63,731 nt of DNA, filler included, from Streblomastix strix (GCA_008636045.1; 3 parts of 3 records of this genome joined end to end with filler, not necessarily neighbours in it); one strand, 5' to 3'; shown: positions 1,785 through 42,415, counted from the first letter of the whole stretch. Program-made: numbers and translations. The notes: generated by a model from the letters alone, not told the origin.

Positions 1785-2049
1785 TATTCTAGCTTTATCT
1801 TGATCATGATTTAAATAGTCTATTATTATTCATTAATTGTTAGTAATTTTTGCAATTTGATAATTTAAGTTTAATGATTTTAAATTTTGAAATAATTAAA
1901 AAATAAATAAATTGAATTATATCAAAAATAGTTTATTTGATAAATTTATGCGTTCAAACATATATATATTCTTTATTTATCAAATTATGATTAAAAAAAT
2001 CCAAAATAATTAAGGAAAAAATATTATAGATCAATTTTTATCTTACTTT

Positions 2050-3020
2050 GATTCTACAACTAATGCTTCAGGATCATCTCCCATCTGTCATTCATCTTCT
2101 TCTTCTTATAATAATAATCCAAACTACGGATTACGTTCTTGTTTTAGAAAATAATGCTATTTCCTATCATCTTGTATACTAATTCTTTTCCTTTCACACT
2201 TTACCTTAAATAAAATTTAAATTTTTTTAATTACATACCATTTGTTTTATATTATAATTCTTCTGAACATAAAATTCCATTCTTGAATTTTTCATAATCA
2301 TTGGCTATTATTTCATCAGTTTATGTAGGATTTGCCCTTATCATATCTATTATTGGTTGTCATTGGCATGTATTTTGTATCAAATTTTGATACATCTCGT
2401 TAAATAAAGGACGTAAATAAATTATCGCAAAATTCTTTATTTTGTTTAGAACATAATTAGTTAAAATATTATCTGTCTCCAGCATGTTTCTTCTTGCTAA
2501 CGCATACAACAAATCTTCTATCCCCTATTTCAACTCTAACAGGTAAAATTTTATTGGTAACGAAAATAAAACTAACTACATTTTTCGCATCTCCTCTTGG
2601 TTGACTCATCTCATAAATTCGTATATTCGAATAAGTAATTAAAGTTTTTAATATCTTACTCTTCTATATCTTGCTATTTTTTCAATTATTCATTTCATTA
2701 GCTAAAATCAATATTTTACCATTAACAATTGAATTAAAATTATTAATCATTTCTTACATATCTGCGCAATTACAATAACTATATCCACTTGTTTATTCTC
2801 ATAAAATATTTGTGAATCTGTTCTTACTAAAAATTTACATACCTCTCAAAATTAATGTTGAATCCGATTTTTTGTCGGGATTTTATTAAGTTTAAACGAA
2901 CAAATTAAATAATAATGTATATATTTATTCCTTGTCTACAACAATTGTTCCTCAAATTAGTCCGAAATATTACTCAAATTGTGATTGATTAGTAATATCA
3001 GCAATATCGCACTTACAACC
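2050..3020 (-). pseudogene. Degenerate viral-type SF3 helicase (D5-like primase-helicase C-terminal domain)
   Basis: The minus strand reads QNPDKKSDSTLILRGMQIFSKNRFTNIL (decayed Walker A, cf. GxQGxGKN), FNSIVNGKILILANE (Walker B), SFIFVTN (motif C) and VEIGDRRFVV (Arg finger). It contains in-frame TGA stops and frameshifts; boundaries are approximate. Confidence 0.75.
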
Positions 3021-3149
3021 TAAAATAGTTGAAAAATAAGTGTAACAGAACTAACGATTTTATTATTTTTTTAGAAATTTTTAGAAATTTATTTTTATTA
3101 ATCAAAAGTTTGCAATTTTCACGTGTTTACAACACATCGTATATGACTT

Positions 3150-3720
3150 AATAATTTGATGAGAATCTTCTGTTTCTTTATTCAGATGGTTAAATAATCC
3201 AAAAAAATTCTAGGTCCTGGATATATAATTGAAATAGATGAGACATGTGTGAGGAGAAGAAAGTGGTAAAGGAGGAGAGGAAAAGAACAAATTTGGGTAT
3301 TTGGTGTTATATTAAAGAAAACTGCTGATAAATAAGATTGATGAAGATATGTACTTATTTCAATTGCCTCAGATCATTCTGCAGAAACATTATATTAAGC
3401 ATTTAGACAGAATATTGCAGATATAATCATAGTTTTTAGTGAGCCATGAAAGTGTTATTCATTGATTTAGCGATATTATTTCGTCAATAAATAATTGAAT
3501 CATAAAATTTAGTTTGTTAATTCCAAAGATAGAGATGTTCACACTTAGCATATTTGGAATTTTTGGGATAAACTTAGACTTTTCATTAGAGGATGTGCTC
3601 CACCTGCACATAAACTTTAATTATATCTATAAGAATTTTTATTTAGAAAAGAATATATAAAGAAATGCATACCTGATTTCTTGTTTATTTTCAAATTATT
3701 ACCCAAATTAACTAGATCAA
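3150..3720 (+). mobile_element. Merlin/IS1595 (ISXO2-like) DDE transposase relic
   Basis: LGPGYIIEIDETCVRRRKWQRRRGKEQIWVFG...DHSAETL...VFSEP*KCY...LNHKIQFVNSKDRDVHTQHIWNFW...LYLQEFLFR matches the Merlin motif order (VEIDE, WVFG, SD-W--Y, NHS--FV, HTQ-IE--W, YL-EF-WR). There is an in-frame TGA at 3447 where W is expected; TIRs were not identified. Confidence 0.85.
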
Positions 3721-4189
3721 TCATTTCAATTATCATCAATGAATTTGCAATTATCGAAAGTATGGAAATTGGTTTGGATAAAAGAGAAATGTTGGTTCGA
3801 GCTGCAAATAAAAACTTTATGTTAAAAATGAAATTTTAATAATTGTCGAAAAGTATGATTTATGACCTCAGGACGTTTAAGGGGAAGATGTGGATAAGTT
3901 TGAAATGAACCTTTTAGAATAAGTAGTTAGGGAAGTGGAAGAAGAGGAAAAATAATTTCATTAAATTCTGATTTATGAAAAGAATCAATAAAAATATGAG
4001 TGAAAAAAAATATCTTTTTTAATAAATTAATTCAAAGTTATATTATTAAAACATCATAATTTTTGCCTAAATATAAATATTAAATAAAATCTATCTTCAT
4101 ACTTCTTACAGAACACTTATTATGAAATATTTAATCAATTATTAATTACATAACAATCCCAAAAAAGTAATTATTATATATATATTGTT

Positions 4190-6050: not shown

Positions 6051-7589
6051 CTTCACTACTTGATATGTAATAATTAAAATATAAATATGAATATAAAAAT
6101 CATTCAAAATTATCTATTTTTTATTTTTTTTTAAAATTTATTATTTTATTATTAATCATACTTCGCAATCTTTACTTCATCTTATTTTATTCTAATTTTG
6201 TTAGTACCATCTCCAAAATCTTCACTGATTGATAGACTTGCAAATAAATTACCGGCATTTGGTTAGAAATATATAAAGCAATGATTATTAATTTTATTAA
6301 TATAATTCAAATAGTAATAATGTTAATATCTAATTTACTATTAATATGTTTAATTCATTATTATTAATATATTCATAATAACATTGACATATTCTTACTA
6401 CTTTGAAAATTTTTCATCATTTTTCAGTTCTTCTTTTTCATTTCATTAATTTAATTATATTTTAATTCTTTATTCTGATAGGAATCTGTCATATTGACTA
6501 TAGAAACGTTTATAATTAGATTATATTAATATTACATACAATGAATTAATAAGAATAAAACGTTTATATAATAAAACAAATATATTATAATAATCTATTT
6601 AATATAAATACGGTTAATTATAAATATTTGCTTACATGTGTTATCTTTTGCCAAATTAACGAACAGAAGAGACTTGATCTATCCTAATTGGAGCCATCTA
6701 TAATCAATAATAATTGAATTAAATAAATAAATTAAATAAGTAAATAAAACAAATAAATATTAATGTTTAAACGCAAAATTTATATTTAATAATTTAATAG
6801 TTCATATTTTTTACTTATTTATTTGAGAATGGTTCTCTGATATCTTCATAATTGTCTACTTGCCTTCAAAATTATAGATAATAAGCAGTAATAAAACATT
6901 TGTATAATAAAAATAACGATATTTTTTAAATATCGATATATTATAATTAGGGTTGATTAAGAAATTAATATATAGATATACTTTCCCAATAATAAATTTA
7001 TTAAGAACTTGATATTGATTTTCATTATCTTTATCCAATTCAGATTCTTCTTTTTTTCTTTTAAACTCAAATTTTCATTCTTTTTACCTTCTACATTAAA
7101 TTTTTCTTTTTCTTTCATATTCAAAATTTAAGTTTTACTATCATTTTTATCTTTGAATAATAAAAACTTTATCTCAGATGAAGAAATTAAAGAATAAATA
7201 TTTTCATTTATATTTAATTACGAGATAGATTATAATAATTTTTATTTTGATTGAAGAGTACTTTGAAGTAAATTTGCTGCATTATATTATTCTTTTGTTG
7301 GTATTAATGATGATTCTTCATTTTTGTTTTCTTTTCTTTCTATTTTGTTCTTATTCTATTTATATTTATCTTTTTTTTACAAAAATATTACAGTTATCAA
7401 TGTTTGTATTGATGTATTTATTGAATTTTGGAAATAAGGTAAACATATTCGAATTATCGCTAGGTAAACCACTAGAAGCATCTGTATTTAACACATAAGA
7501 TAATGGAGCAATAGCTAAACTTTAATTTATTTATTTAATTAATAATTAATTTGAACATACATCGATTTTTGCCCATAATTCTCCATATT

Positions 7590-8454
7590 TATCTACATTT
7601 GCTATAGTTGGATCAACATTCAATGGATGAGCATGGTTATATCTAGCATAATTATTAAAATTACCTTTATCTCCAGATTCAGTGTCTTTTAATGGCTCAT
7701 TTGATACAGTTGGATCTATGCTTAATAAATGAAAATAATCATTACTAGAGTATGTAGTTGATGTTCCAATAGCCCCAGTTCCAGTATCTCTTTTTTGTTT
7801 ATCATCTGATACTTATAGTGGAAGCATATGCTCTCCTCTAGAATACTCATTTGCAGTTCCTGCAACTCCAGTTCCACTATCTACTAATAGAGTAGCATCA
7901 CTAGCAGGAGTTACTTAATCAGGAACTATATCTCCACTATTAGATTAATTCTAATCATACATCTATTGAGTTCCACTTTTAGCAGAGAACACAAAATCAC
8001 CATTGGTAGAGTTTTATAATTATTATATATCAGTACTAAATAAATAGTATCCTCTAAAATGAGTTTATTTATTAAGTTCTTAATTAATCACATTATTTTA
8101 CTATTAAAAACCTCCTAAATCTTATGTTACAATTCCGAATGTCTATTATATTACATTAATTTCTTATTCTAATGTAGTTATTTTACCTAAGAATCTATTA
8201 TTTAAAAAAATTTTATTTTTCAATGTCATATCATCATTAGCATCTAATTTCATTTCGTAATTCTAAGCATTATCTATTAATGCATTTATTAATGAATTTT
8301 AATCATCTACAATCAATTAATATTCCCTTCCTGATAATTAATTACTGAAACTTGATGATTTTCTTGAATGATATATCAAATATTGGAAATCTGAATATAT
8401 TAATGAACGAATCACTTAGATCTATTATTAGCTCAAGGTTTTAGCAAATATCAT
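7590..8454 (-). CDS. Tail-fibre/spike-like viral protein, 3'-truncated or degenerate
   Basis: Frame open from ATG 8454: coiled-coil segment, then THFRGYYL...NGDFVFSAKSGT...SGDIVPDQVTPASDATLLVDSGTGVAGTANEYSRGEHMLPL...DTGTGAIGTSTTYSSND...GNFNNYARYNHAHPLNVDP. These are ~30-aa G-x-G-x-x-G-T...Y(S/A)R-x-D/N-H-x-H-P repeats resembling phage tail-fibre HxH repeats. Confidence 0.65.
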
Positions 8455-8509
8455 ATTCGAATAAAGAAAAATAAATATAATCATATAATTTTTTTATTTA
8501 TCATTCGTT

Positions 8510-9555
8510 ATGATTTCATATTTTGATTGCAATTTATTGAAAATTAAGAATTCAGATCAATTAAGAGTTCCATATATTAACATAAACTCATCAAAGTCAA
8601 GATTCTTAATAGAATTCTCATCATAAACTTGTTTCAAATCACTTTCACTGAGTTTAACTCCCCAACATATAACATGTGTTAATATTCAAACAGTTTAAAA
8701 TATATAACTTGAACGTTAAACAATGAAAAACACAGTATTTTTGTTATGTCCATTGTCAGATACTAGGTGACATATTGTCTTAACTAATACTTATGAGAAT
8801 CTTTAAATATCAGCATTACTTCCTATATCATCAAATATTAATAATGATTTTAATAAAGAACTATGAAATAATATATGAATTCTTAATATCTTGAAGTCAG
8901 CATCACTTTCCACTTATGATATTTCTATTTTTTTCAAATAATATATTATGAATCATAGCAAGAATTGTAAATCTCATTATCATTGTTGTAGCACTGTATT
9001 TAGTGATGATATTAATGCATTACTATCGAAATATTTACGCAATTCTTCCTGCATAATTCTTAAGGATTTTTTTATTTATTATTCTGATGCTGCTGAAGTA
9101 ATTCTAGTTGGATTCTATTTTATAGAATTATTTATTAATATTCTTTCTTTCCTTCTCTATATGAAATCAAATTTGTACGATACATTTAATTCGCTTAACT
9201 TCCAGTAAGTATAAATTTCCTTAACAAAATATTTAATTTCATCAAATTAAGGGAGGAATTAATTAGCTTTATTATATGTTATATTAGTTAAGATTATATT
9301 CTTAGAGTTCCGATTCAAAGCCATAGTCTAATCAGCACCAAAATTAGAGATGTATAAAATGAATGGATTGATTCATTATTTATAAATTACTATTAATTTA
9401 CTTAATAAAGTAGTTTTTCTTGAACTAACTACATCAACTATATAATGATTCCCATTGATTAAGAATAATGAATTCTTTGTCAATGGCTTAGATTTATTAT
9501 CATTTAACATAGAAATATCAGTAAATGTTACAGATTATATTACGGATAACGTCAT
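8510..9555 (-). pseudogene. A32-like (FtsK-HerA) genome-packaging ATPase, frameshifted
   Basis: From ATG 9555: decayed Walker A HYIVDVVSSRKTTLLSKL (~9405-9440), Walker B SLLIFDDIG (~8825-8850), then HLVSDNGHNKNTVFFIVQ (cf. the RH...hhhhQ motif) and THVICWG. Confidence 0.75.
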
Positions 9556-10799
9556 TATATTTATTATAAAACAAACATATGTTAAATATAATAATAATAA
9601 TTATCAATTCCATATTTTATGATGTAAACTTCATTGTATCTATAATATCTCTATTAATTCATAAGTAATAATCATAGATAATATCATTAATAAAAGAATT
9701 ACGGAATTATTTTGATATAATTCTAATTCGTATTAACATAATTATATATATTTCAGTTAGTTTATCGTAAGAAAAAGAAATTTAAAAATGGAAATTTAAG
9801 AAAAACCAAATATTAATTAAGTAAGTTATTTCCATTGGTCCAAATACACAAATGAATAAATAGAGGATTTCATTAGATAAACAATTGAAAAAAAGATAAA
9901 GAACTTGCAAAGATGTGAAAATATATATTATATTTAAAATTATTGAATCTTAAAATTAATGATAATTTTAATTGAAGAACTCATTGTCTCCGACAGAACG
10001 AAGCCTGAAGTGAGCATATCTTATCTATGATAAGTGCAAGCAATAAATATTCTATCTAAAACATTATTTTTTAATTAGAAATTGCGTAAGCTCATTACCA
10101 CGAAGTGATTATCTCAATTATTATGAATAACATATGATTCACATATTTTAATTGCAAAATATTCAGGTAAAGAATATTTATTTAATATATTAATTATCAT
10201 ATTGTTATAAAGATTAATAAAATAATCCACAGGAACGTCTCCAGTCAAATGTTATGAACTAAAATATACCGAAAATATTGTACGTGTTAAAGGTATGTTT
10301 CTTGGTGTTCCATTAAATTACAGTTTATATCATCGCTAATAGTAGAAAACATAGTATATTCTCCTTTGCAAGCTTTATTTGGATCAGAATGTGAGATTAA
10401 AAGTGAAATATATATACACTTCCATTTTGTGTTATTAAAGTTCACCATTCTAATTTCTCATTCATTCCGTAAGCAATCGGTCTAGTAGTAGCATTTTCAA
10501 TTGGTTAATAAATTAATTAATCTTTATCAATAATATCTCCATTAGTTAATAATATTTAATTATTAATTAAACCTTATTTAATGAATTTATTAGCTATGAT
10601 CGATCATGAAAATAATTTAGATCCTATAATAATTTCTTCAGTATTTATTATTAGTAAATGAGATAAATCAGATAATGATGATATCTTAAAAAAATTGCTA
10701 AATTAAGTAAAATATTTTATAAATTCATTATCTATTTATTAAGTTATTTATTTTTACAACTTCAATAGTGATTCAAATTCTTATTATTATTTCTTTATC

Positions 10800-11757
10800 T
10801 TCTCATATTCAGATTTCATTTATTATAGTTCATCTTCTGATGGATCCTACAAATCACTGATGATTTGGCGACGAGGCTACTCAGTCTTTAAATCTAAAAG
10901 AGGTTACTCTTCTTGCTTTAGTATTCAACAAAAATAAACAATTTCATAATGGTGTTATATTCAGAAATGCTAGCATCATTGTAAATCTTCGATTTTCAAA
11001 AATCATTTAGTCCATTATCTGATTCTAACTTGTCAGATTATCTAATAAAATCTTTCTCAACTCTTTACAGCTTCTCAATATTATTCCAAAATACATTATC
11101 AATGTTAGAAGTAGAGACATTCTTGATGTGAACATCATTTATTCTTACGATTTCTTTCTTCTTATATTTTTATGAAGAACAACTGTTATATCTCATCAGT
11201 GGTTCTTCTATTATAAGTTCAATATCATTTTCTTCTTTTTACATTAAAAATGCCTAGAGTTTAAAATAGTTATTAGAGTTAAATATGAAATCTTCACCTT
11301 TTTTATGTGAATCAACCGTTCGCCAAATCGTATCTATGATGAATTTCTATACTTATAAGTTGGCATGAGATAAATATGAATCCTTAATAACCTATTCTGA
11401 CTCAAGTTAAGCTGTTTCACGTGAAACTTCTTTATATTTATGAATGTTATATTTTTATATTCTGGGTATTTTTGTCTAAATTTCTCGCTGTTGTTAATCC
11501 TCCTCATCAATTTATATTTCCTTTGATTAAATCGGAGTTTAGATAGATGAGTTACTCAATTCATTAGAAAATACAGGTTAAAATTCGTCATTTGAAATTT
11601 TTAACTATGGAATCTAAATTGATTTCTTAAAACCATTCATAATTGCCTCTTCAATGGCATATAATCTGGCTTCATCTTATTTTGATAATTCTTTTTTAAT
11701 AATACTCGCATATTTTCATTTATGAACTCTAATCTGAATTGTTTGTGTTATTGTCAT
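10800..11757 (-). pseudogene. Orphan ORF of the viral element (MTITQTIQIRVHK...), with internal TGA
   Basis: Long intron-less frame under TAR=Gln with few TGA codons; no recognised motif. Confidence 0.4.
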
Positions 11758-11799
11758 TAAATTTTTATGTTTAAATAAAATCAGTAAGAATCTTATAAA

Positions 11800-12483
11800 A
11801 TGAATCAAGTATAAGCATTAAAGAATCTCATAGAAAATGGTACTTCAATTGAATATTTTAACAATGGATGTAATTTGTAAGGTAAAGATAAGATTAAAAT
11901 ATATGATGAAGGAAAGAAAGCAGCATGAATTCTGATTCAAGCATTATAAACGAAATTATTATTAGAAGCAAGAGGTCAAGGCAGAATCAAACCTATTCGA
12001 GAATTAAAAAGATATATTGAATATAGCAGTGATGAAGCTGAAGATGAGGCAGAAGACGAATGTAGATACTATCAAAATTATCCAATGAATATCGATGATG
12101 ACGATTGTTATAATTAATAAATTATCGAGGAGAAATCAGCGGAGCTGCTTGAAGGATAACACCTGAAACCACGATAAATACTAAAATCATCACCTATGAA
12201 AATTATTAAGAAGCAATTGATTAATTATACTTCTTCATCAGTAGATTTAGAGGAATTAATTAGATTGCTCACTGAAAACTCATTCTTTAAGTAATAATAT
12301 CAAGAATCTATTAAGAAAGTTGAGAAATATAATGCAAAAATAATAAATTATAAATAAATGAAACTCAACGATGAATAAGCAGAGTAAATATAAACTCCTC
12401 CATAAGAATAACTTGCTGAATATTAAGAGTAAAAATATTAATAATAATAAGAAATTATATTTAATGAAACAGATTTATGGTGA
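11800..12483 (+). pseudogene. Orphan acidic ORF of the viral element (MNQVQALKNLIENG...)
   Basis: ~227 codons from ATG 11800 to TGA 12481-12483, with one internal TGA near 11926. Confidence 0.45.
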
Positions 12484-13149
12484 TTACATTCTTCGTCATT
12501 GCTTATATAATGAAATCACTCATCAACATCATCTTCAGTTGAATTATTAGGATTATCATATTTTTCTTATATATATTAGTTTTTAAAATATAAATTGTTC
12601 TATATCAGAAATAAATTCATTAATTCTTTAATTTTTATAATTTTTCCATCGCATTTATCTATTATTTTATGTATTTAAATAATTTCTTCAGAATTTCGAA
12701 TTACTATTCTTTAAAATCGTTAAATTAATAATATCTAAGAATTTATAACTCTATAATTATAATCATGTAATTTTTAACTTTCATAAGCATGAGCTATATT
12801 CTTCTTATAGACTATAGCAAATCTAGTTTCATCATCATTGGCATACTTATGTTTTCGAGTCTTCTTTGGAACTTCATTTCCAGTGATTATAGTTTAGAAG
12901 CATTACAAGCGAAAATTTTCATCTATTCTTCAGGTGATGGTACTTCTAAACTAAATTACTACTTGCATTTTATAACTTTTTACGCAATTGCCATCTTTCT
13001 ATTTTTTATTCGAAAATAAAATAAAAATATTTAAAAGTTAAAATATATTTATTTAATATATTATTAGTATTTTTATCTAATTATTGATTATTCAAAGCTA
13101 ATATTTTACAATATAATATTAGTAATTATAATATTTTTATATCTGAATA

Positions 13150-14060
13150 TGGCTTAAATAATTTGGCTGTTATGTTTCCATTAGAATATTTAATAAAGTT
13201 AGCTAATTTATTGAAATATCTTCTTTATTTAACGAATTGTTGACCTATTTTAGAGTAATTTAGATGAATCATTAATATATATTTCCTTGTGAGAATTAGA
13301 AAAAGTTTTTATTTTATTATTGAAATTTAATTTCAAATAGCTTATTTTTTTGCTTTCTTAGATATTATCCTTCAATATCTTAGTTATCATTAGCTTTTTA
13401 TTGTGAGTACTTATTATTGCAAGCAGAATGAGGAGTCTAGTTATACATCTAAACAATATAATACATTAAATCATTATCAGCAAATTTCAATGAATCATCT
13501 CAAAATCCATTATGAATTGTTCTAATAAGTAAGTCTACAACTCTATTATGATTAATTAACTTAGAATCTGTAAAGAATGAAGTAATTTTATTATCCTAAC
13601 GGAATGATTTCAAAATATTTCCATTAAATCCCATCTCACCATCACATTAAATATTGGTAACATGTTGATTCTTAACTAGTATTTACAATGTAATCATAAT
13701 TTAGCCTGTTGATTTATCTCTTAATGGGAAAACAATGAGATATTAAGAGTTGATATTGATACAGAATAGATATATTTAATTAGCTCTGATAATATGATCA
13801 TTCATTGAGAAAATTTAATCAATTTCCCATGAACCATGTTTTGGAGAGAAATATGGACGATTCAACTTAGATAATGGCTGAATTTGGTAATTAGGAGGAA
13901 TCTTTTGGATTTTCTCAGGTGATTTTCTATGAAGCTTCTTAAAATGCTCTATCTTATATTTGAAGGAATAATTTAGATATTTATTGCCAGTTAATAAACG
14001 AATATTTATTGTTTACAATCTATGTTTATTACTAAATCTTGATGCACTTGATTCATCATG
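13150..14060 (-). pseudogene. Retroviral-type (rve) integrase 1 with a D-D(35)-D triad
   Basis: KLNRPYFSPKHGSWEID (D at 13818-20)...YLFCININSQYLIVFPL...NIQCDGE (D at 13641-43)...NHNRVVDLLIRTIHNGF* (D at 13533-35; in-frame TGA at 13500-02)...MYNQTPHS. Confidence 0.85.
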
Positions 14061-14399
14061 ACTACTATACGATGACTGTTTTCCAGAGCCTTAACTTTTT
14101 CACGATGTTTTGGACCTAATTCTCCACGATTCTAGTCAAAATGGTCATTCTAGACAATTAACCCTATTTTTCAACGATTCTAGCACATTTTATCATAATT
14201 TATATAATTTAACTGAATCACAATAACCAGAACGCAAATCCCAACGATTATTTGAAAATGGAAAGTTGTGGAAAATCAGTGCTTAATATCAACGATTCTA
14301 ACACATTTTTACCATTATTTACATGCATTGATGCTAATAAATTACTAAGAAACAAATGGTGAAACATACAAAAATAAATCAATCATAACGTTGAAAATG

Positions 14400-15277
14400 T
14401 GATTATTAATTAGCTTATCGAAAATTATCTCCAAATAAATGATACATAATTTCATCTGGTGATTTTTAAGGTATTAAATTTATTTTATTAATTATTCTAC
14501 AAATTTATCATGATCCGACATCTTTAGTTTACTATTTTGAATAGTTTAATTGTATATCATTGCATTAACCAAAGTATAGATATTTCGAATATAATTTCCA
14601 AGCAAACTTGAATCTATTAATTTAATAACATTATTTATCTATTGTTACTCAGCAGTTGATACATTCATTTAATAATCTTCACGAATTTACTTACATTTCT
14701 CATGATCAATACCTGATTCAATTTCATTATATTCACATAGTGAGTCACATGTAGCCTCCAACATCTAGCCCAGCTCACTTTCGAATAATCCTTTAGTAAG
14801 ATCATCTGTTTGCACACCTGATGACTGTTAATTATTTTTATTATCCTACTATTAATAACGATTAATCAAGAATTTATTTATAGATGATTTAATAGTATTT
14901 TTATCACTTTATTCACTTAATTATTCACTTGTTTTTTCACTTACTTTTTCCTCCAATTAATTTGTATCACCAACATCCTGAATTATCGGATAAATTTATC
15001 TTGGAAATGATGTCTAATTTGCTGGATCTATTAATGTATCATTTTAATTTATATTTTATGTATATTTTTGTCTATTCTTAGGTATGGTGTCTAAATATAA
15101 TCTATCATGTCTACGCACAATCCGATGAGTTGGGAAACTGGTATATTTGTTAATAATGAACGATTTAATTTAATCAAGTTCTGGGTTCTCTAGCATAAAC
15201 ATCCTAACTTCTTCAAGTGTTGTTATTTTTGATAAATTCTATAATATTTCTAGTTAGTCTTGGTTTAATCGTGGCAT
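14400..15277 (-). CDS. Orphan ORF divergent from pPolB (MPRLNQDQLEILQNLSKITTLEEVRMFMLENPELD...)
   Basis: About 290 codons largely free of TGA; ATG at 15277, 84 nt from the pPolB ATG. The 3' end is approximate. Confidence 0.5.
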
Positions 15278-15361
15278 ATTTCGATGCAGTAAAAATATTA
15301 GATTCGATCATCTTAAACAACTTTTTACCATCATTAATACAACTTTTTATCAGATATCAAA

Positions 15362-18300
15362 ATGGCTAGAAACTATTTTCTAATTTCCGAAATTCGTGAT
15401 ATGCTCAATCAACTTGAAGTTCAATATGATCATAAATCAACCAAATCAGTACTTGAGTAACTATTATTAAAAACAATTAAAGAATAAGGTTACACTGGAC
15501 CAAAAAGTAGCATTACTAAGATAAGTGAGTTTGTTCACAATATTATTGCAACGAAAAATATATAGAATAATGAAGTGATTAATCATACAACTAACGATGA
15601 GATTAATGAATAAAATAGCAACATAGTTCAGACGTAGCCTTCAACCTATGATATAGCAGCCGAAGGTAATAAATAAGATGATGAATAAGAGTTAATATAA
15701 TTATAATAAGAAAGAATAAAAGCTAAATAAGAATTGAAATTAGCCGCAGAAAAATTGGATGGAATTAATAAGTAAATTGAACTTAGATAGTAAGTGACGA
15801 GGTTATAAAAGTTGACTAATCAATTAGCTATTGATAGTGAATAACTTAATGAAATTGAAGCTTTCGATACAGTCAAGAAGTCAATTAGAAATCGGCAACA
15901 AATCAATGATGCAAAGAGGTAACTATAAGAATTAAAGGATAAATAAGTGTAATAAATTAATGAAATAAAATAATAAAAAATCAATGATTTGAGCCCGATT
16001 AGTTAGAAACAATTAATCAATACAAGAGCAATGCTTGCACAAAATTTAGACTAGATATAGCTGTATCATGCGGCTAAGAAGATTTAACGATAATACTAAC
16101 AATATAAATAACGAAAAATAATAACTCACTTCGTTAAGGATCTCAGTAATACATTCAAGCAAGTTAAACAAGTTAGAGACGAAAGATTATCAGACTTAAA
16201 TAAAAATAAACTAACTGAAGAAGAGTATACAATTAGATAAGCGAAACTAACTGAATCATTACTTGGGTTTTATAAAAATAAATAATTATAAGAGCCTGAT
16301 CTCAAATTCACTAACGAATATAACGACTAGGTTGATGACTTGCTCAAGGCATTTATGTTCTTCACAACTGATGATTTGAAGAAATTTAATGAGATCCTAG
16401 TTGAAACAAGAAAGTGATATCGTGAATTGAACGAGGTTCATCTTGCTGGATTATCAGATAGAACTGCATAGATTAACAATGTTTAAATAGGGAACCTTAT
16501 CATACATATTACCTTAATAAATTTACTCATCTTAAATAATTCGACGATAAACTAGCATAAGTACATGAATTACATAAACATAGAATATATAAGATAGCTA
16601 TGGATTTCGGAAGTATCTGGTAAACAACTTAATCAACTCATTCCAAGACAGGAATCAGAAATGACTTTAGCTACCATTATTATAAATCTTCACTTGAAAA
16701 TTCACATAAAAATTACCCAATAATTATACGAAATAATGTTTCACTTAAACTATTCAAGGATAGAATCCACGATATGATTTACGAAGACTAGTCCCCTCTT
16801 CACTAGGAATCAAACACTCGAAAAGTAGCACTTTATTCATTTGTTATTATTGTTTATGAATTACCCCTTGGAACTAAATTAAGACATGAAGTTTAATGGT
16901 TCAATCAACACGATTACACTAGATCCATTGATTGTGATTACAATATCTGTTGGTTTATAGCTGCATCATTTTAATTACATCCTGAAATAAATAACTATAA
17001 ATCTCGTATCGCAAATGCTATTGAATTGTTCCTATAATTTCACGATCAAGTTCATAAGGCTGAAGGAAAATTAAGCAAATAATAAAAATAATTGCCAAAA
17101 GATTATGAAGGATTCAATTAAGATACAGATCTAGAGAAATTCCAGTAATGCTTTAAGCTAAACGTAATGACTTATGAATATGATAACTCTGAAAAATAAT
17201 TCAATAAAACTAACGAATATATTGTTAACTAAGATTATAAAACTACTCATATTTTATTAGCTTCTTTATCCATACAAGGTGATGAGAATCCGTAAGTTCT
17301 CGCTATGTTCATCAAAGACATTGATCGAGTAGTTGGTGGATACTTATGCAAGAAATGTAATCAAAAACTATTCAATCGGGCTAGTGATAACTTCAGTAGA
17401 GACTTTAAGACTCATCTAGAATCATGTAAAGGACCTGATCAATAGAAGCATCCAAAACTTGATAAATTAGCACAATCGTTTATGCCTTATCTCAAATCTA
17501 ATAAAACAATTCAAAAGCTATTCGCAACAGGTAAAATAAAGCTCTTCCCCAAGAATTTGGAGTAGGGAGTGAACAATATACTATAACCTACAGAAAATTA
17601 CATGTGCGTTGATGCAGAAACCGTTGAAGATCGAACTTAGGATGATGAAGCCAAAGGCTAAGCAAGCGAATAAATCTACGCATAACTCAAACCACTATCT
17701 ATAGTTATTGGTACATAAATTAACAATAAAATTTAATAAAAATACATTGATTCCAGAACATAAGATTTTATGAATAAATTCATAGAGCAAATGTGGGAGC
17801 TAGCGAATTAGGTTAATGAAGCAAAATTAACGTGTTAACTGATAGTGAAATTTGATAACGAGAATGAATAATAAAAACATTAATAAAAGATTCATCAAGT
17901 AGCAATCTTCGGATTCAACTCCAAGAAGTTCGATTTTAACATCATATTTCCATATCTAGTTTAATATCCTAAAATTATATTTAAAAATAACTAATATCTA
18001 GGATCAACTACTCAACAGAAGTAAGTGACAAATACACACACAGATTATCAGTTTGAATTAGTTTTCAAGGATGTTCTTACATTTATTCCTCTAACAACTC
18101 TCGATAATTTTGTTCATAAGTACGGTAATGGAACCAAACTAACTAAGGGTAAGTTTCCTCATGGATCTTTCAACACTAGCAATGTGAATCAGTTCTTATC
18201 ATCAACAGAACTATTTGATCATAAGGATTTTTATAATTAAACTAGTCGGAAAAATATTAGCGATAAAGAGTATTAGGAATACGTTGATAATTTCGATACC

Positions 18301-20517
18301 GTCGGCGGCATCAAAGATGCTAGTTTGGATGCAAATGGGAACAGAAAATTTGAAGATAGATGGTCCTATCTAAAGTACTACAATATTCGTGATGTAGAGT
18401 GTATGTTTGCCCCTATAAATAATTTAATAGATTTATGTTGGGAATAAGGTATTGATATGTTATCTTAGATATCCTTATCTCAAATAGCTAACTCAATTAA
18501 GTATAATTATGCGTGGGAAGACTTCGACATAAATGGTGATTACAATATAGAAACAGGTAATAAAGAATATAAATTTTATTCAGAAAAATGGAATAAGAAA
18601 GTTGAAGAGTATTTGCAATAAGATAACAAACAGGGAGAGATACTACAAATAACGTAATTGGTGATGATATAGATCATTTCAATCAGATGATCACAAATAA
18701 ATGCTGCTACTGCTAAGCTAAGTTCACTAATGTAAATATGCCAACTCTTGAACGATCTGACAACAACATTGCTCACACTAAAGATAACTGCAAACTAGCT
18801 TGTTAACTATGCAATTCTACAAGATCAAACAAAGATGCTGATGTGGCAAAACTAATGATATAGATGTACAAATATGCTATTGTTAAGAATCTGCCTATGA
18901 CAATTGATGATGAAGAAGTTTATTGGTTTTTACGTAAATCTATCCATGGCGGATTGAGTTAAGTATTCTATCAATATAATATAAAAGAATTAATTCACAT
19001 TAATAAATTAAAATATAATCCTGAAGAAAACAATATGACCACTTACGATTTAGATTACATATTCACTCATATTCTAGATCTTGATTTCAACTTATTATAT
19101 CCAAGTGCTTTCTGTGGAATTTATAATAAAAATAATCCGTATACTAGTGGTAAGATGTATATGGCTGGAGAATAACTGAACACATTAAAATTCGTGAAGC
19201 AAATGATTAGGATTATCGAGATACTAAGCGAAAAGAGATGATGAATATCATTAACTCAAAAGATAGATTCTCAGAGGAAAAGGGATAGCTATTCATAGTA
19301 TCAGTTAAGGGACACATTGATAAGGTTCACATTAACGAACACATTAACTTCCCACCTATCTGGAGGAAAAGAACTTATAAAACTGATGAGAAAACAATTG
19401 GAAAATTCACTTATGAAAAATGTAAAAATAAGGATTATCTGTTAATAAATTAGTAACAAAATTAACATCATTATTATCTATACACAATGAATATATGTCA
19501 TTCTCAAGCTATTACTTATGGCTATTGATTGATTATTGTTATTTCATTATCGATAATGTTGAAGAGATAGTATTATTCATCAAGCATACAGCGTTCAAAT
19601 CTTTCGTGGAAGTAATTGCTGAGAAACGTTAATAAGCAATGCGAGAAGGTTACTAAGCTAAATAACTTTATTTCAAAAATATAGTGAATAGTTCATATGG
19701 AGCTGATGGATAGAATAATGAAAAATTTGATAAGATTGGTATCTACAATAAATAATAATCATATCAAAAATAATTAAATAAAGGTTTCACTAACATACGA
19801 AAGATTTGTGATGACCGTTATCTTGTGTCGATTAATCCTAATTCATTTTCCGCTCATAAGTGCTTATAAGAAAGTATATTCACTTAAGACAATTCTAAGT
19901 TCTGGTATTTATGTTTCATTTACTTCTTCCTGTACAAATGTATTGATATGAATCGTGTTCACTTTTGCTGTATGGATACTGACTCAATGTATCTAGCTAT
20001 TAGTGGTTCAACTATTGAAGGATATAAATAATAATTTAAACATGTAATTAAAGATTAATAGTTTTGGGATGATCATTTCAAAGAGTGGCTTCCATGGGAA
20101 GGCTGTTCGATTGCTGAAGAAAAGAAGTTACTCGGTTGTGCTATCGAATCATAGAGAGAAAGCATCATCTGTTTAGCACCCAAATGCTATTCCGCAATTG
20201 ATGGCGAGGTTGATGATGTAATAAGAATGAAGGGAGTTAATGAAAAAAATAGTGGTTTGACAAGAGATGATTATATTAATTGTATTGAAAATAATTTAAA
20301 TGTATCAGTTCCAGTTACTTAAATTTAACTGAAAAATGGAGTTATGTCAATGATAAAAATAATTAAGTCTGCATTGACGGGAGTAGTTGATAAGATGATA
20401 GTGATTGATAGCGATATTTCAAAAGATTAATCATATCCATGTGCACCTCAAACTTATGGAGTTGAAGCTGCTAGTTATCAGTACTCACAAAGTGAGCGGT
20501 CTAAAGACTACATTTGA
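15362..20517 (+). pseudogene. Protein-primed family B DNA polymerase (Polinton-type) with several frameshifts
   Basis: ExoI CVDAET (17611), ExoII GFNSKKFD (17911), KGKFPH, ExoIII YYNIRDV (~18376), RKSIHGG, motif A LDFNLLYPS (19083), motif B FKNIVNSSYG (19675), motif C MDTDSMY (19975), LAPKCY, MKGV. Frameshifts at ~16.5 kb, ~18631, ~19168 and ~19430, a TGA near 16415, and terminal TGA at 20515-17. Confidence 0.93.
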
Positions 20518-20519
20518 TC

Positions 20520-21180
20520 ATTTATTATTTTTCAAATTTTTATATCAAACTCTTATAAATAAACTTAAGGTAATGAATCTATATTCTCACTAACTTTCTT
20601 GTAGTAGTATATTGGTAATTCTACAATAGATAATTTTTAGTGTTATGATATGAATTATCGTAAGAGTCTACATACTACATTACTGTTTCTATATTCTATG
20701 AACTCTGCTAACTCATTGAACTATCTTCTACGCTTCATATATGAGAAAGCAGTCTTTGATAAATCAAGATGAATCATCAAAATATTACCTTGTTTAAAAT
20801 TAAATAATCCTTCTGCTTTTTATTTTTATTTTTATTTTATATCATTTAACTCTTATTCTTTCATTCTGATGAATGCACCTTCAATATCAGAATTATACTA
20901 TATTTCTTCGGGAGAGAATTTATTATCATATACCAAATGTGGAGTCTTATTATAGATATAGACTAAATGTAATAATTTTTCAGGATCAGCAAAATCATTA
21001 CTGCTTGTGCCAAACCCATTACGAATCGTCTTAACTACTGAATCAACTATTCTATTGTGTTATGTGAACGGTGATCCTGTGAAAAAACACTAAATTCCTT
21101 ACTCTTCTAAGAATTATTGTACATCCTTACCTTTGAAGGATCTTTCACCATCTCCTCTTTTATTAGTTACGCGCTATTAA
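20520..21180 (-). pseudogene. Retroviral-type (rve) integrase 2, 5' part lost in the gap
   Basis: VTNKRGDGERSF (D at 21150-52)...FFTGSPFTQHNRIVDSVVKTIRNGFG (D at 21042-44)...DFADP; clearly homologous to integrase 1. Confidence 0.85.
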
Positions 21181-21280
21181 NNNNNNNNNNNNNNNNNNNN
21201 NNNNNNNNNNNNNNNNNNNNNNNNTTAATTAATTAANNNNNNNNNNNNNNNNNNNNNNNNNNNNNNNNNNNNNNNNNNNN
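21181..21280. other. Assembly gap with artificial TTAATTAATTAA linker
   Basis: Exactly 100 nt of N with a central linker, identical to the second gap. Confidence 0.97.
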
Positions 21281-21585
21281 CCGTATGCTAAAAATCATTG
21301 ATAAACAAATCAATTTGCTACAACTATTCAATTAGCGTGGGCAGATTGACCTGAAAATGAATGATTTTTAACATACGGCAAACTTCTTCATACTATACTA
21401 CTAATATAGTGAAATATTTCATTAAATATGAATGATTTATTTTAATTTAAATTTAAACATGTGTTAAAATAATAAATTAACTAATTATATATTGAAATGA
21501 ATTAATAAACAATGTAAATTGCAATAAATTAATATTCATTATAAAAAATTTATCTTCTTATTTCTGATTCAACAATTTTTCATTT

Positions 21586-24500
21586 TCATTTCTTTGAATT
21601 TAATCCTTCTTTCTTTCTCCAAGCAATTAAATCTTCCATTTCTGATTTATTAATATTCTTTATTTCATATCCTTTATTTGTTGAATATTTATTTATTATT
21701 CTTTTTTCTGATATATTGATATTCTCTTTTTAATCATATTCATCGTTATTAACTAAATGGGTATGTTTAATATTTTATTATTTATTATTTAAGTATAATG
21801 TATTATTACTATGAATTGATTATTAAGGAACTAATTAATTGGGGAAAATTTAAGATTTACTGATTGGATTCTTTTCATTAGAAGAATAAGAATAAGAATT
21901 TCTTAATGAAGATGATTATGATTACATTTAAGGTGATTGCGATGTGTGATGTATGTGTTTAGATGTTGATGTGTTTGTATTCTAATATTAATTAGATAAA
22001 CTACTTCTAATTGGTTTATTCAATTAATCTTTCATCATCAAATATAATTATATTTCACTGTCTTCATTCATATCTTTTTATTCATATTCTGTTTCATTAT
22101 TATTCTAAATTTATTTGTTTTAATTTCTGTTTAAACTCAAACTTCTGCTTCTGTTGTGATTATTATTAATATTTTGTCTTTATTCATTCAATTAATTATT
22201 TCTTATTTATTAATGTTAATTTGTCTGATTATTTTGTAATTATTAGTATTATTATTATATTATTTATTAGTTTGATATAATCATTTCGTTTGGTTGTATT
22301 ATATGAATTCTTTTATTATGATTTAATCTAATTGGTTATTATTAAGGAATTATATCTTATTCAATATCATCTTCTTTATTATTAATTGTATTGCATTCCA
22401 TAATATCAAATTGAACTTCATACTTATTCTTATTTTATTTATTATCAATAATAATATCTTCATTATCTTATTCTTATTAATTTTATTCTTATTAAAATTC
22501 CTGGATTTAATCTTTTTCTTAAATTAATTACTTAACTTCAATCTATTTCAAAATAATATTAATTTTATTTTCTTCTTCATCAATAATATTTAACACTTAA
22601 TTCCAAACTTCATCTTCATTTTCATTCATATATTCATTATTATTATTATATTCTTCTTCTTATTCATAATCATTCAAATGTTTTCCTCCAAATCTCTTAT
22701 TTCTTTGCTTATTCAGATCTTTCTCTCTATTTTTCATTAATATTCTCATTTTTTTTTCATTTTACTTATTATTGTTATTTCCCATTTCATTCATAACTTC
22801 ATTCACATCTGATTCCATCATTTCAATCATCTCATTCTCAAATTCTTCTAATTCTTTCTCTTTTTAATTCTTTTGCTTCTTTTTATTTATTTTATTCTTT
22901 ATTTCTGTTTATTTATTTATTTATTATTTGTTTATATTTCTTTATTATTGTGCTTATTACATTCTTATTCTGAGTTCAATGAATGTTGAAGAGCGGAATT
23001 TGAGTGAAGATTGTTGGACTGAATAATTAAATTATATATATGAAGAAATTATATATATATTAATATATTATAATTTAAATTTATATTAATAATAACATTT
23101 AATTATCAATAATTATTTATATTATTGATACATACGTTTCTTCTTATATTCATTAATCTTCTCTTTCATAACTAATCTCATTTTCATTTGTGCTGTTTAT
23201 AAAGAAGATCGAAATTCAGATTAACATTAAGAACGGATGAGAAGCTTTATTATTTAAAAATGAATAAAAAGAATGAATAAAAAGTTAATAAAATTTGTTT
23301 TGATTTAAAATTCAATATATTTTCAATTATATTTAATATTTATATTTATTATTTATTCAAACCATTTCTTTATCTTTCTATTCTAATTCGTTCTTCAAAT
23401 TATTCTACAATTCTTTTTCACTCATTTTCTTTGATTCTGAATAGTATCTATTAACTGATGATAAAACATCCTAATTAAATATAGTATAAATTAATAGCAA
23501 TAATAATTATATAATAAATTATTCAAATAGTATTATATATTATTATTCATTATATTCATATTATAATATACTTCAATATGCATCTGAGCGCTTTCACTGT
23601 GTCTCATCTTCATTTGAAGTAATAATCCTTCATATTCCTTTATTTTCTATTTATATTCTGATAAATAAGTAAACACATTGAATAATATATAAAAGCAAAT
23701 ATAATTCGTATTATTCATAAACTTATTTAATATATTTAATTTATTTTAATTTACTTATCAAACATTTCAATCCAATCTCAATTTCTTCTTTTTTCTTTAT
23801 TTCTTCTTCTTTTATTCTTAATTCACACATTTATTTCATTTATTTCATGGTTTATTCTCTTTAATTCATTGATTCTTCATATCCTTACTTTAATTTATTC
23901 ATTCTAATTGTGAATGAAGAATGCAACTGCGAATAAAAATATAATATTAATAAAGATAAAATACTAATTATAAAGATACAATATTGATAATAAAGAATTT
24001 ATATTAATAACTTATTTATATTTATATTTATTAATATTAAATACTTATATTTATATATATTCTAATATTTACTATTTATTATTTATATAATAAAAAACCT
24101 CTTTCTTCATCCTTTCATTCTCTTCTTCAATTTCATTTCTATTCTTTTATCTCCAATCTCTTTCACATTTACGTATTGCTTCTGATAATGATTATTAATG
24201 ATCGATATTCTATTAGGATAATAAATATATAAGAAGATATGAAGATAATAAAATATAATAAAGAATATTATTAATATATTGAAAATAGTTCAAATTCATA
24301 CAATTGCATCAATCTTTGCTTATAATTCACATTTTTCAGCTCTTAGATTCTCATTCTCAAATCGAAGTGAGATGCATTCTTTCATATCTTCAATTTCATT
24401 ATATTCATTTTTAGTTTTATTTCTCCTTTAGTTTGATTTATTATTAGTCATTTAATCATCTTCTTCTTTATTTATTTCTTATTCAGTGTTTTTCATTTAT

Positions 24501-32014: not shown

Positions 32015-35000
32015 ATGAAAATGTTCTTTATACTTGTTGCTCTAGCTGCCTTGTGCAACGCTAAACAATTTATAGTTCCGGGGTAGTACAAGGAAATTTA
32101 TTTAGCATTTTAAGAAATGGCTACTAGTGGTAGTAACAGTGATATGATTGACATATAGTACAATTATTCTTATAACGCACAGTTGTAATATTCAAATTTC
32201 AATAATAGGAACTTAACAATAACAACCAATTACAATGCTAGTAGCCTAACGAGCACAGCTAGTTCAGCACTGTTTCAACTTAGTGGATCGAATTTCAATG
32301 TTTTTATAGCAAACATTACTATTTTGGATGCCAACAACGGTGGACTATTCAGTCTCTCATGCTCTTTGCTCCGCATTGACAATGCTACTATTAGAAGATC
32401 TATCTCTGTTTCAGAAACAGCCAATTCTGGGTACCTGTTTTAAGCTCCAGGTGCCAATATCGTTATAGGCGAGTTACAAGGTACCCCATTTTTCATAGCG
32501 AACAAGGTATTCAGCCTGTCAAACAACAATTTCACTGTGTACAAAGCCGACTTCTAGCAAACGTCCACATAAACTACCACAGCAATGATCTCTTCAAGTA
32601 ATTCAGATATCGTGTTTGGCGGTGAACTCACAGATTAACAACCAACAGTTACTGCAAACTTAGCGCTGCAAGTCACAGGTACAAGGAGCCCCATTCAGAT
32701 CAAGAGAGGCACATACACAGGAAGTTCAATAAGCACAGCTCTATTCAATATCGCTGGTAATGATGTTATTATTGGGCAAGGTGGATATGCTCCAAGATTC
32801 GTCAATTTGGGAACTTTCCTTCTGGCTGGCCGTGCATTGCAGATCATTAGTGGCACTTTCTCGCGTAGCTCTTAATCAGCAACATTAGCTTTCAGCTTCA
32901 CACAGAATGCCAGTGTCACGATTGGATCTGATTCAACAGTGCCTGTTTTTGATAGCATCAATAGTATTACACTCAACTATTGTAGACTGACAATTAATTC
33001 AGGTAATTTCATCAGTGCAAGCGCCAGTACTTATCTGTTGAACTCAGAGGCATCCAATATTACTATTGGAGATGAAAGTTCATAAGCACCGTCATTTACA
33101 GCATAGCGAATATTAAATGCTCATTTTGGTACATCAAATATTTTGAAGGGAAGTTTCGCTGGAATCGGTTCAGCTAATGAAGGAAATCTTCTGATCAGAC
33201 AATCCACATTTACTGTTCTAGATGGAGTTCCAAGTTTCACAAACATCGATCAGATCGTAATCAACAACTCAACAGTGAATATCAACAGTGGTACATTTTC
33301 TGGTATTGGAGAGAAACCTTTGATAGCAACTTCCAACAATACAGTTCTTAATATTGGTCAGACAACATCAACAGCTGCATTGACTTTCGCTGCTAATTAG
33401 ATTATAAACACAGCTGCCAGTCAATTGAACATCTTCAGAGGTGGATTCAGTAGTTCTTCAACAACATTGCCTTTAATCCAAGCTATAACAACTCCCATCA
33501 CAATTGGTACAGGAACTGGAGTACCAACTTTCACAGCTCAAAGAGTCATTGATATTCTCGCTTAGTTGCTCACAATCAGCAAAGGAACTTTCACTGGCAC
33601 AACAGCATTGGGGACATATCTCAAGACAAACGGTACTAATGTTACTATTGGAGCAACAACCACTGGAAATGTGCCATCATTCACTCTTGATCAGTTTGAT
33701 ATATAAGGAGGTAGAGTTGAAATAATCAGTGCACAGATCACATGTGGTACTGGAACAAACAGCGTAATTAAAGCCACGCCCAATTCACAGGTGATAATTG
33801 GAACAAGCACTGGAACACCTACTTTAACACTGACAGCTGCAACGATCGTTGAAGTTGCATCTGCTACACTTACGATATACAGGGGCGTATTCAATGGAGC
33901 TACATCAGCACTTGGAACAATTATCAGGACGCTTAATTCTTAAACAACGTATGCAGCACCTGTAACACCACAGATTAATGGAATTGAACTTATTGAAGTT
34001 GATGGGGGAACAATAACAGTATAATCTGGGTATATAATAAAAGCTGCTGAAAGAACTAGTCCATTAATTAGAGCGTTTAATAACCCAACTGTGGTAATTG
34101 GTTAATAGACTGCAACTGGAACTGCTTTAACTTTAATAGGAACAACAATACTTGATATCGTTGAGGGAACATTAAGTATCTATAGAGCGACAATTAACAG
34201 TTCATCACAAATATAGTACGCATTCCAAGCTACAAATACATATATATCACTAGGAAACAATGATGCATATCCAACTTTCAATGGCTTATGCTAGATAAGC
34301 TAGATAGGGAATGTATTGAACATCACACGCGCTGCCTTTTCAGGAGTAAATGGAGCGAATCCTTCAATAAGAGCAACAAATTCGGCTACTATAAATGTTG
34401 GTATTGGAACAAATACACCAACTTTTAGCTGCTCAAGAGCTATTGGAATCTATGACAGTGTTTTGAATATTTACAGAGGAGCTTTTTCTTCTTAAACATC
34501 TGCTATAGCTTCTTATGTAATTTAAGCTACAAACTCTGCAGTTACAGTAGGCAATGGGCAAACCCCAACTTTTACTAGTGGTAATGTATTCGATACTTTA
34601 AATGGAACACTAGATATCATATCTGCTAATTTTACAAGCTCTGGAATAGATGTTACAACATCCAACACAGTTACAACAATCGGAAGTCTTTCATCAATAC
34701 TTAATATCTCATTTACTGGTCAGAAACTATTGTCTATTACTGGATCAAGTATCAGTATAATAAATGGAACTTTTACTTCAACTTCAGACACACTTCCACT
34801 ATTTGCAGCTGCTGAGACATCAATTACAATTGGAGAAGGTGGATTAGCTCCCATATTCCAATCACCGTATTAAATTATAGATCAAACATAAGGAAAGGAA
34901 TTGAATATATACAGCGGTGCATTCACAGGAACGCATGCAGATCTACCTGCATTATCACTTATTGGTGTTAAAGTCGTAATCGGAAATCAAACTCATTTTC

Positions 35001-41000: not shown

Positions 41001-42415
41001 ATCTGGATATTCATTGGTTCTCTCTCGCATCAGATTCGGAGATTGGATTACAACCAGTGATGAACCTCTTATTGATATCAAAGGACAACTGCAGAATGCT
41101 CTTATTGAGAACATAACCTTAGTCAGAGTTGGAAGATAATACGGAGGACCCAAATTACTTAATCTGAATATAAGAACTCTTGGAGAAGCTAAGATCAGTA
41201 ATGTTGTTGTAGATGGAAGAGGATGGGTTCATTAAAGAGAGATTAGAGAGATATAGAAGACGGATAAAGAATATGAAAGATTGGGCGTAGAAGCTGAGAA
41301 AGATAAATGTGGGAAAGAGATTGTGAAAGAAATAGTGAGTGATGGTGTATAATTGTAAACAAAAGATAGAATAATTGAATATCCAAGTTTAGTTGAATGG
41401 AAACACCCAGCTATAAAAGTGAAAGGAGGAAAACTCAGAATTGTTGATTCCACATTTGTTGGTCTTGGTGTTGATGGTGCTCTTGTTTTAGAAGATGTTG
41501 ATGCTGAACTTTCCAACACAACACGATTTGAAGAGAATGATGTTCTAAGCGCAGCAAAAGCTGGTGGTATCAATAAGAAGAAAGTGCCACCCGAGTACAA
41601 GAAAGTCGACGATGAGAAGAAGAACGACCAGTTTGATGAAGACGATCGTCAGATTCACGAGTTGAGGAGGTACCGCGGATATACTAAGAACCTATTCGCT
41701 AAAGGATAGACTACACTTAAGGCTTGGAATGTGAGTTTCATTGGTGAGAAGCTTTATAAGAAGAAGAAAGCTTATAAAGAAGGATACCCATTGTTAGTGC
41801 AACACGAGAGAACTGTTAAATTAGTTGGTGAGATTGGATAGGCTAATAATGCATATGGGGTACCTGATGTTACATATGTTAAGACTGAATATTCCAAAGT
41901 TGCAGATAAGAAAACTGCTGATGGAAAAGCGGAGAAGACAGTTCAGATTGAGATCAGAACGAAAGGAAATCTAATTCCTGGAGTTGAGTGGTTCATTGAA
42001 CTGAAGAACAAGAAAGATGAAGAAGGATCATAGCGTCTGTACCACTACAACTTATTAAACAGGGATATATGGTAGGATATATCACCTATATTAAAATTAC
42101 AAGGATGGTATGTAAGCACTGATGAAAATAAGCTCAAAAATGAAAAATCAAAAACAAACAGTTATCCAACCGATGAATTCGGTGGGCAAGTTCTTGTTCG
42201 CTGGCTTAGTGAAAGAGTCATTCAAGTTCGTATTGCTCACATTGAACCATATGTAGAGAAGAAATCCAATGCAGATAAAGTAAAAGATCCAGATTCAGAT
42301 CATATCTACAAAGATTGGTAACTGAGGTTGGGTGTTGAGAAAAGAGCTGATTAGGAAGGATCTGGAGCTGATCCTGAGGTTAAGTGGACGAATCTGAAGA
42401 AAACTGGATTGTCGG
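32015..42415 (+). CDS. Giant secreted/surface protein with parallel beta-helix-like repeats (>3,400 aa; exons 32015-39622 and 39745-42415; 3' end lost in the gap)
   Basis: Signal peptide MKMFFILVALAALCNA. All + strand ORF-track fragments with repeat-like content fall in one frame per exon. Recurring ~45-50-aa unit (vtIG....PtF...l.I..GtF), followed by FxxN/GGAI-type motifs. Phase-0 intron at 39623-39744; a new GT donor at 42416 after KKTGLS. Confidence 0.88.

What the first reader, a model, noticed from the sequence alone, without database searches (positions are those of the whole stretch)
13150..21180. Two paralogous integrases flank the polymerase
Seen: integrase 1 (13150-14060) and integrase 2 (20520-21180) lie on the same strand either side of pPolB. 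They share the (R/C)xDGE and HNR(V/I)VD..(I/V)(R/K)TI.NGF motifs but differ substantially elsewhere, so this is not a recent tandem copy. Inference: either a two-integrase element or two related elements nested or adjacent.
Basis: partly seen in the sequence, partly recalled or inferred. Interest (0 to 1): 0.7.

Follow-up and report, generated by a model that had tools for sequence, protein, structure and literature searches.

The report
Two stacked Polinton elements, different families
The two integrase genes are real but belong to two different families of virus-like jumping elements in a termite-gut protist, a younger one likely inserted into the start of an older, decayed one's integrase gene, so this is most likely ordinary pile-up of mobile DNA and not a new two-integrase element.

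Summary
Both integrases are real (TAA/TAG=Gln code; 39-42% identical), and nearly all close relatives are Streblomastix strix gene models. They fall in separate clades, A (int1) and B (int2), each tied to its own polymerase clade. In 9 of 21 family-A models a polymerase only 28-42% identical to the window's lies directly upstream on the same strand; here it is missing, and int1 is broken and lacks about 26 N-terminal residues. The window's polymerase is family B and is linked to an int2-type gene in three other copies. Int1 homology stops at base 14060, where ACTACTATAC and a multi-copy non-coding repeat stretch begin: a candidate left end of element B. Best reading: B inserted into the 5' end of int1. 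The gap at 21181 hides B's other end, so terminal repeats and target duplication are untested, and no contig bridging the junction was shown. Of 23 related metagenome loci, 2 hold two integrases, each with an element end between them. Side finding: the family's catalytic triad reads DD(35)D (132 of 136 rows).

The parts
13078..14060 (-). int1: family-A retroviral-type integrase, decayed (in-frame stop 13500-13502, frameshift near 13275, about 26 N-terminal residues missing)
   Evidence: clade A; at most 77% identical to any relative
12453..12994 (-). family-A gene directly behind int1 (unknown function), decayed
   Evidence: matched by the C-terminal extensions of family-A gene models
10996..11933 (-). 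further family-A coding remnants (unknown function)
   Evidence: P0055 62-79% and P0067 55% identical
8509..8859 (-). C-terminal remnant of an A32-like packaging ATPase, with stops; assigned to element A by strand and order (inferred)
   Evidence: tblastn E 4e-6; profile of 8 related ATPases iE 7e-8; relative L007 ORF hits Pox_A32 weakly
7318..8556 (-). 412-aa frame behind the ATPase remnant; no family hit; part of element A only by position (inferred)
14055..14060 (+). ATCATG, the predicted 6-bp target-site duplication if element B inserted here (second copy not visible)
   Evidence: sequence; inference
14061..14310 (+). candidate left end of element B: ACTACTATAC followed by a stretch without a recognised gene that holds three copies of a CAACGATTCTAG-like word
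   Evidence: variant contigs of other copies lie on it in two studies
14276..15277 (-). 333-aa ORF of unknown function, assigned to element B by position (inferred)
   Evidence: 3 short relatives among 1.84 billion representatives
15362..16417 (+). 351-aa ORF ahead of the polymerase; possibly its N-terminal (terminal-protein) part (untested)
16426..20517 (+). family-B protein-primed DNA polymerase, in four pieces (frameshifts near 18630, 19180, 19417)
   Evidence: PF03175 E 1.7e-4, below the curated cut-off; 76-90% to P0203 and 67-90% to P0126 pieces; clade B
20532..21179 (-). int2: family-B integrase, open as far as visible, 5' part cut by the gap, convergent with the polymerase (14 bases between the stops)
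   Evidence: 84% to P0004
21181..21280 (.). scaffold gap (N runs with a TTAATTAATTAA linker); host-like genes follow

Best explanation
The two integrases belong to two different Polinton/Maverick families, and the younger family-B element (polymerase plus convergent int2, from about 14061 into the gap) likely inserted into the 5' end of int1 of an older, decayed family-A element (about 7300-14060). Shown: separate integrase clades, each linked to its own polymerase clade in other copies; int1 broken and cut at 14060; family-A genes continue to the left of it. Inferred from known Polinton biology: each element is copied by its own protein-primed polymerase and inserted by its one integrase with a 6-bp target duplication; B's insertion would have pushed int1's first codons and the family-A polymerase beyond the gap. 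Both copies here would be inactive on their own (int1 has a stop and a frameshift, the B polymerase three frameshifts). Two separate elements in any arrangement: about 0.8; this nested form: 0.6.
For: Int1 sits in clade A (19 rows, support 100) and int2 in clade B (again 99 and 100). 9 of 21 family-A gene models carry a polymerase C-terminal piece upstream on the same strand, 28-42% identical to the window's polymerase; the 6 of them put in the tree form their own clade (99), apart from the 10-row clade (98) that holds the window's polymerase. 12 of the 21 models continue into the window's 12994-10999 genes. The window's polymerase type is linked to an int2 type elsewhere: consecutive tags EZS28_014579/014580 on a contig of 8665 bases, and model P0129 runs from polymerase B into the antisense frame of an int2-type gene (82% to 21013-21180), the window's convergent layout. 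Clades C and D also have own polymerases beside them (tags 049744/5, 031898/9). Int1 homology ends at the His codon 14060-14058 exactly where ACTACT starts; ACTACT or AGTAGT occurs 13 times in 21180 bases. Related gut-protist elements start with AGTAGTATAG at 13 of 16 aligned ends. 2 of 23 metagenome loci hold two integrases, L022 (second element starts inside the first) and L023 (head to head), each with such an end between the genes.
Against: B's far end, its terminal inverted repeat and the target duplication are not visible; no family-A polymerase lies anywhere in the window. The word at 14061 reads ACTACT on the strand where a left end should read AGTAGT, so it is a variant end or chance, and it was noticed after the fact. 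No contig bridging 14060 was among the pieces shown (5303 not shown). Model P0008 has polymerase B and an int2-type piece on the same strand, and P0065's polymerase piece falls outside clade C, so rearranged copies exist. The links rest on automatic gene models and tag order, not on the contigs' DNA. Branching order among the four clades is unsettled: B with C at 95, open, and A with B as sisters is not rejected (p-AU 0.14).
Confidence: 0.6

Rival explanations
1. Two separate elements lie side by side without true nesting: A lost its 5' part by deletion or rearrangement, and B (complete or itself truncated) abuts the break.
For: All family evidence fits equally; A is heavily decayed; the terminal word is non-canonical in orientation.
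Against: A break falling exactly at a (trinucleotide)x2 word followed by a multi-copy repeat stretch would be a coincidence.
Confidence: 0.22
2. The join at 14060 is an amplification or assembly chimera of two unlinked repeat copies.
For: The assembly is gapped and repeat-rich; no bridging contig was shown; the public S. strix data are described as single-cell metagenomics in a reference title seen (whether the window comes from those data was not established); chimeras in amplified DNA are recalled knowledge.
Against: The join coincides with a terminus-like word; real nesting of relatives is seen in L022.
Confidence: 0.12
3. One mobile element carries two integrases (a recombinant that captured int-A), both used or one specialised.
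For: The genes lie on one contig 6.5 kb apart; the ATPase left of int1 and the polymerase right of it could be read as one element's modules; A-B sisterhood is not rejected.
Against: Int1 is broken and cut; its family has another polymerase; a candidate end lies between the genes. Among 74 S. strix integrase models listed only one contig shows two, both family A and at least 90% alike; none of the 19 contigs over 8 kb shows two (read from contig lengths and tags; only 120 of 233 hits were listed).
Confidence: 0.05

Closest known systems
Metamonada-group endogenous viral elements of Streblomastix strix (Bellas et al. 2023, PMC10120064; passages and supplement rows seen)
   Same: Same host group and TAA/TAG=Gln code; pPolB plus rve-type integrase; 820 capsid genes counted in that species' assembly (Table S1), so neighbouring copies are expected.
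   Different: The paper grouped elements by capsid gene; the passages seen give no integrase-polymerase families or termini for this species. No capsid gene was found in the window.
Polinton/Maverick elements (as described for vertebrates in PMC8097293, section 7 read)
   Same: Protein-primed polymerase, retroviral-type integrase, packaging ATPase; 6-base end motifs of repeated short units; most copies decayed.
   Different: Described ends are (AGT)2//(ACT)2, (AG)3//(CT)3 or (AC)3A//T(GT)3; the candidate end here would be (ACT)2 at the 5' side. Third catalytic residue reads Asp, not Glu. No protease seen; gene order differs between families A and B.
Related elements in gut metagenome contigs L004-L023
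   Same: Same integrase family; L007 has polymerase, integrase, ATPase in tandem like family A; L022 and L023 show two integrases through stacking.
   Different: Standard genetic code; AGTAGTATAG ends; in L008, L017, L018, L019 integrase comes first and the polymerase lies at the far end on the other strand.

Membership tests
Polinton/Maverick (element B) | [quoted passage not shown] | tested here: met
   PF03175 E 1.7e-4, under the curated cut-off; 90% to P0126, which carries PF03175
Polinton/Maverick (elements A and B) | retroviral-type (rve) integrase | tested here: met
   through relatives: P0004 over the rve cut-off; model of P0045 matches retroviral integrases, E 1.6e-11; window proteins have no Pfam hit of their own
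Polinton/Maverick (element B) | terminal inverted repeats with 6-base end motif | tested here: inconclusive
   one candidate end at 14061 with non-canonical orientation; no long inverted pair in the window; other end in the gap
Polinton/Maverick (element B) | 6-bp target-site duplication | not testable with these tools
   far end hidden by the gap at 21181; no genome held
Polinton/Maverick (elements A and B) | double jelly-roll major capsid protein | tested here: inconclusive
   profiles of presumed capsid ORFs from related loci found nothing in the window; both elements are incomplete here and those ORFs were called capsids by size and position only
Polinton/Maverick (element A) | packaging ATPase | tested here: met
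   C-terminal remnant at 8859-8509, iE 7e-8
Polinton/Maverick (element A) | own polymerase | tested here: inconclusive
   absent from this copy; present upstream of the integrase in 9 of 21 family-A models
single two-integrase element | int-A and int-B recur together with one polymerase in other copies | tested here: not met
   no A-B pair among 74 listed models; each clade has its own polymerase; limited by short contigs
canonical DD(35)E integrase | Glu as third catalytic residue | tested here: not met
   Asp in 132 of 136 rows with a residue, 35 residues after the second Asp in int1 and int2; aligns to the Glu of VVE in lentiviral integrases in weak profile matches (E 0.04-0.2)

The most novel reading that the evidence does not exclude
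Gut-protist Polintons form a large clade whose integrases use a DD(35)D triad, and family B of Streblomastix has switched its ends from 5'-AGTAGT to 5'-ACTACT; these elements insert into one another often enough to build stacks, of which this locus is one. That would give matched natural pairs for testing how a Polinton integrase recognises its ends.
Probability: 0.3. Interest if true: 0.45.

Novelty: new member of a known kind. Interest (0 to 1): 0.2.

Why it matters
As a locus it matters little: stacked, decayed Polintons are expected in a genome with hundreds of copies. It adds a first sorting of Streblomastix elements into at least four integrase-polymerase families with different gene orders, and two leads: an Asp in place of the catalytic Glu across 132 of 136 relatives, and a possible variant end motif. 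A true two-integrase element would have been a surprise, but the evidence points away from it.

Tried and rejected
No whole genome is held, so gene order came from gene-model extensions, tag order and contig lengths. Viral-contig scans with two integrase alignments found no relative (119 and 27 stretches, 0 confirmed); the prokaryote genome scan likewise (26 stretches, 0). A pattern scan for the candidate end in viral contigs gave 5 loci, none related to the window. Repeat searches found no long inverted pair enclosing both integrases. Laying contigs of 4 runs on 13150-20800: summed depth drops from 11,700-24,000 over int1 to 470-3,700 right of 14174 in X1, with a like drop in X2 and X4 (one sample), but not in X3 (32-144 against 7-254); the tool says this is no copy number, so it is not counted. 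No RNA holder was listed. The ORF at 14276-15277 has only 3 short relatives, which give no linkage; the 351-aa ORF has no Pfam hit and stays unexplained. Reading the ACTACT word as the canonical right end of element A was rejected, because int1 coding homology runs right up to it. Congruent branching of integrase and polymerase trees (B with C) appeared but not and is not claimed. Tree is the quick tree, 119 of 125 rows (6 short rows left out). Earlier findings: nothing on this genome or sequence; the 8 word matches concern other genomes. Not found in print: 'two integrases' 0 times in the 20 papers listed, 'DD35D' 0 times in the 15 listed and passages of PMC10045372 showed no description of these families. 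Two papers were not held. The Bellas supplement was cut and its annotated element maps were not seen; they may already show these families.

Full report
Setting. Long frames open only under NCBI code 6. All 12 relatives of int2 in the first search are Streblomastix strix gene models, so the window is read as DNA of this oxymonad or a close relative. The contig 1-21180 has no gap; a scaffold gap follows at 21181-21280, then host-like genes. No genome is held.

Observation. Both integrases are there, on the minus strand, either side of a plus-strand polymerase. They are 39-42% identical (E 4e-31). Int2 is open from the gap to its stop at 20532. Int1 has an in-frame stop at 13500-13502 and a frameshift near 13275. 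The polymerase lies in four pieces. The family is retroviral-type: relative P0004 passes the Pfam rve cut-off, and the model of relative P0045 (pLDDT 88) matches retroviral integrases.

Families. A profile search gave 233 relatives, 120 listed. In the tree of 119 of 125 rows the S. strix proteins form several clades; int1 is in clade A, int2 in clade B (again). The automatic gene models often splice neighbouring genes together and so record gene order. Of 21 family-A models, 9 begin with a polymerase C-terminal piece on the same strand, only 28-42% identical to the window's polymerase, and 12 run on into sequence matching window 12994-10999. So family A reads polymerase A, integrase A, further genes; the window holds the part from the integrase onwards, with an ATPase remnant at 8859-8509, and no polymerase A.

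The window's polymerase has close relatives of 73-90% and sits in its own clade of 10 rows. It is linked to int2-type genes three times: consecutive tags 014579/014580 on one contig; model P0129, which continues from the polymerase into the antisense frame of an int2-type gene, the window's convergent layout; and P0008, which has both on one strand and is the exception. None of the 72 polymerase hits holds a sense integrase piece. Clades C and D have own polymerase clades next to them; P0065 is a mismatch. Among 74 listed S. strix integrase models one contig shows two, both family A. The order of branching among clades is not settled, and A with B as sisters is not rejected (p-AU 0.14).

The junction. 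Aligned to family-A N-termini, int1 homology ends at the His codon 14060-14058; about 26 residues are missing. From 14061 the plus strand reads ACTACTATAC, then about 215 bases without a recognised gene, with three copies of a 12-base word (12 window matches at 2 mismatches against 4 expected, three of them clustered here). Variant contigs from other copies lie on this stretch in two studies (18 and 45 X1 contigs, 6 and 5 X3 contigs at 14241 and 14279), with joints that skip repeat units. Described Maverick ends are (AGT)2//(ACT)2 and variants (PMC8097293, section 7), and related gut-protist elements start AGTAGTATAG at 13 of 16 aligned ends. The window's word has the same pattern with C for G. 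Such a hexamer occurs 13 times in 21180 bases, so its place at the junction is unlikely chance, though noticed after the fact. Its orientation is not canonical, so it is a candidate end only. No contig bridging the junction was among those shown.

Precedent. Of 23 metagenome loci with a related integrase, 2 hold two: in L022 a second element starts inside the first, and in L023 two families lie head to head; each has an element end between the genes. Bellas et al. 2023 (PMC10120064; passages and supplement rows) count 820 capsid genes in S. strix. In cryptophyte elements, extra rve integrases were traced to inserted retrotransposons (PMC12220804, passages).

Mechanism. Shown: two families, each with one integrase and one polymerase type; A decayed (int1 at most 77% identical to relatives), B closer to its relatives (96% over 133 polymerase columns). 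Inferred: B, copied by its protein-primed polymerase and inserted by int2's family enzyme, landed in the 5' end of int1, duplicating ATCATG; the rest of A would lie beyond the gap. Odds: nested 0.6, adjacent 0.22, chimera 0.12, two-integrase element 0.05.

Side finding. The third catalytic position is Asp in 132 of 136 rows, 35 residues after the second Asp, and aligns with the Glu of lentiviral integrases in weak profile matches. DDD triads are known from other transposases (PMC10045372, passages); my searches did not show one described for Polintons, but most subscription papers and Repbase were not seen.

Verdict. Real observation, ordinary cause: new members of a known kind. Interest 0.2.

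Noticed in passing
window 13500-13700 and 21030-21160 (catalytic cores); alignments A2, A4: The whole integrase family, in S. strix and in metagenome relatives, has Asp at the third catalytic position (DD(35)D), 132 of 136 rows.
   Followed up: partly
window 14061-14070: ACTACTATAC mirrors the AGTAGTATAG end of related elements with C for each G; possible variant Polinton end.
   Followed up: partly
L022:4704 and L022:6947; L023:1629; L009:456 and 671: Related elements stacked in or beside each other, with sharp AGTAGTATAG starts.
   Followed up: partly
L008, L017, L018, L019: Near-complete 11-12 kb elements: end, integrase, ATPase, a 540-aa presumed capsid gene, a variable gene, and a polymerase on the other strand; none of the 7 L018 proteins hits Pfam.
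   Followed up: no
L004:1430-4381, L006:2248-5286: About 1000-aa ORF convergent with the integrase that did not match the polymerase queries or, for L004, Pfam; a different replication gene is possible.
   Followed up: no
window 2316-2681 (-) and 3450-3908 (+): Further mobile remnants: DUF5906-like piece (E 2e-4) and an IS1595/Merlin-type transposase piece (E 0.003).
   Followed up: no
P0016 (S. strix model EZS28_025909): Clade-C integrase model preceded by an HNH (PF13392) piece.
   Followed up: no
window 216-1442 (+); 32015-42576 (+); 47816-52213 and 52485-63695 (-): Host genes: a formin FH2 domain (E 3.5e-74) and several very long frames of 1465-3736 aa not examined.
   Followed up: no
window 21181-21280 and 42458-42557: Both gaps are identical 100-base spacers with a TTAATTAATTAA core, i.e. 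artificial scaffold joins.
   Followed up: yes
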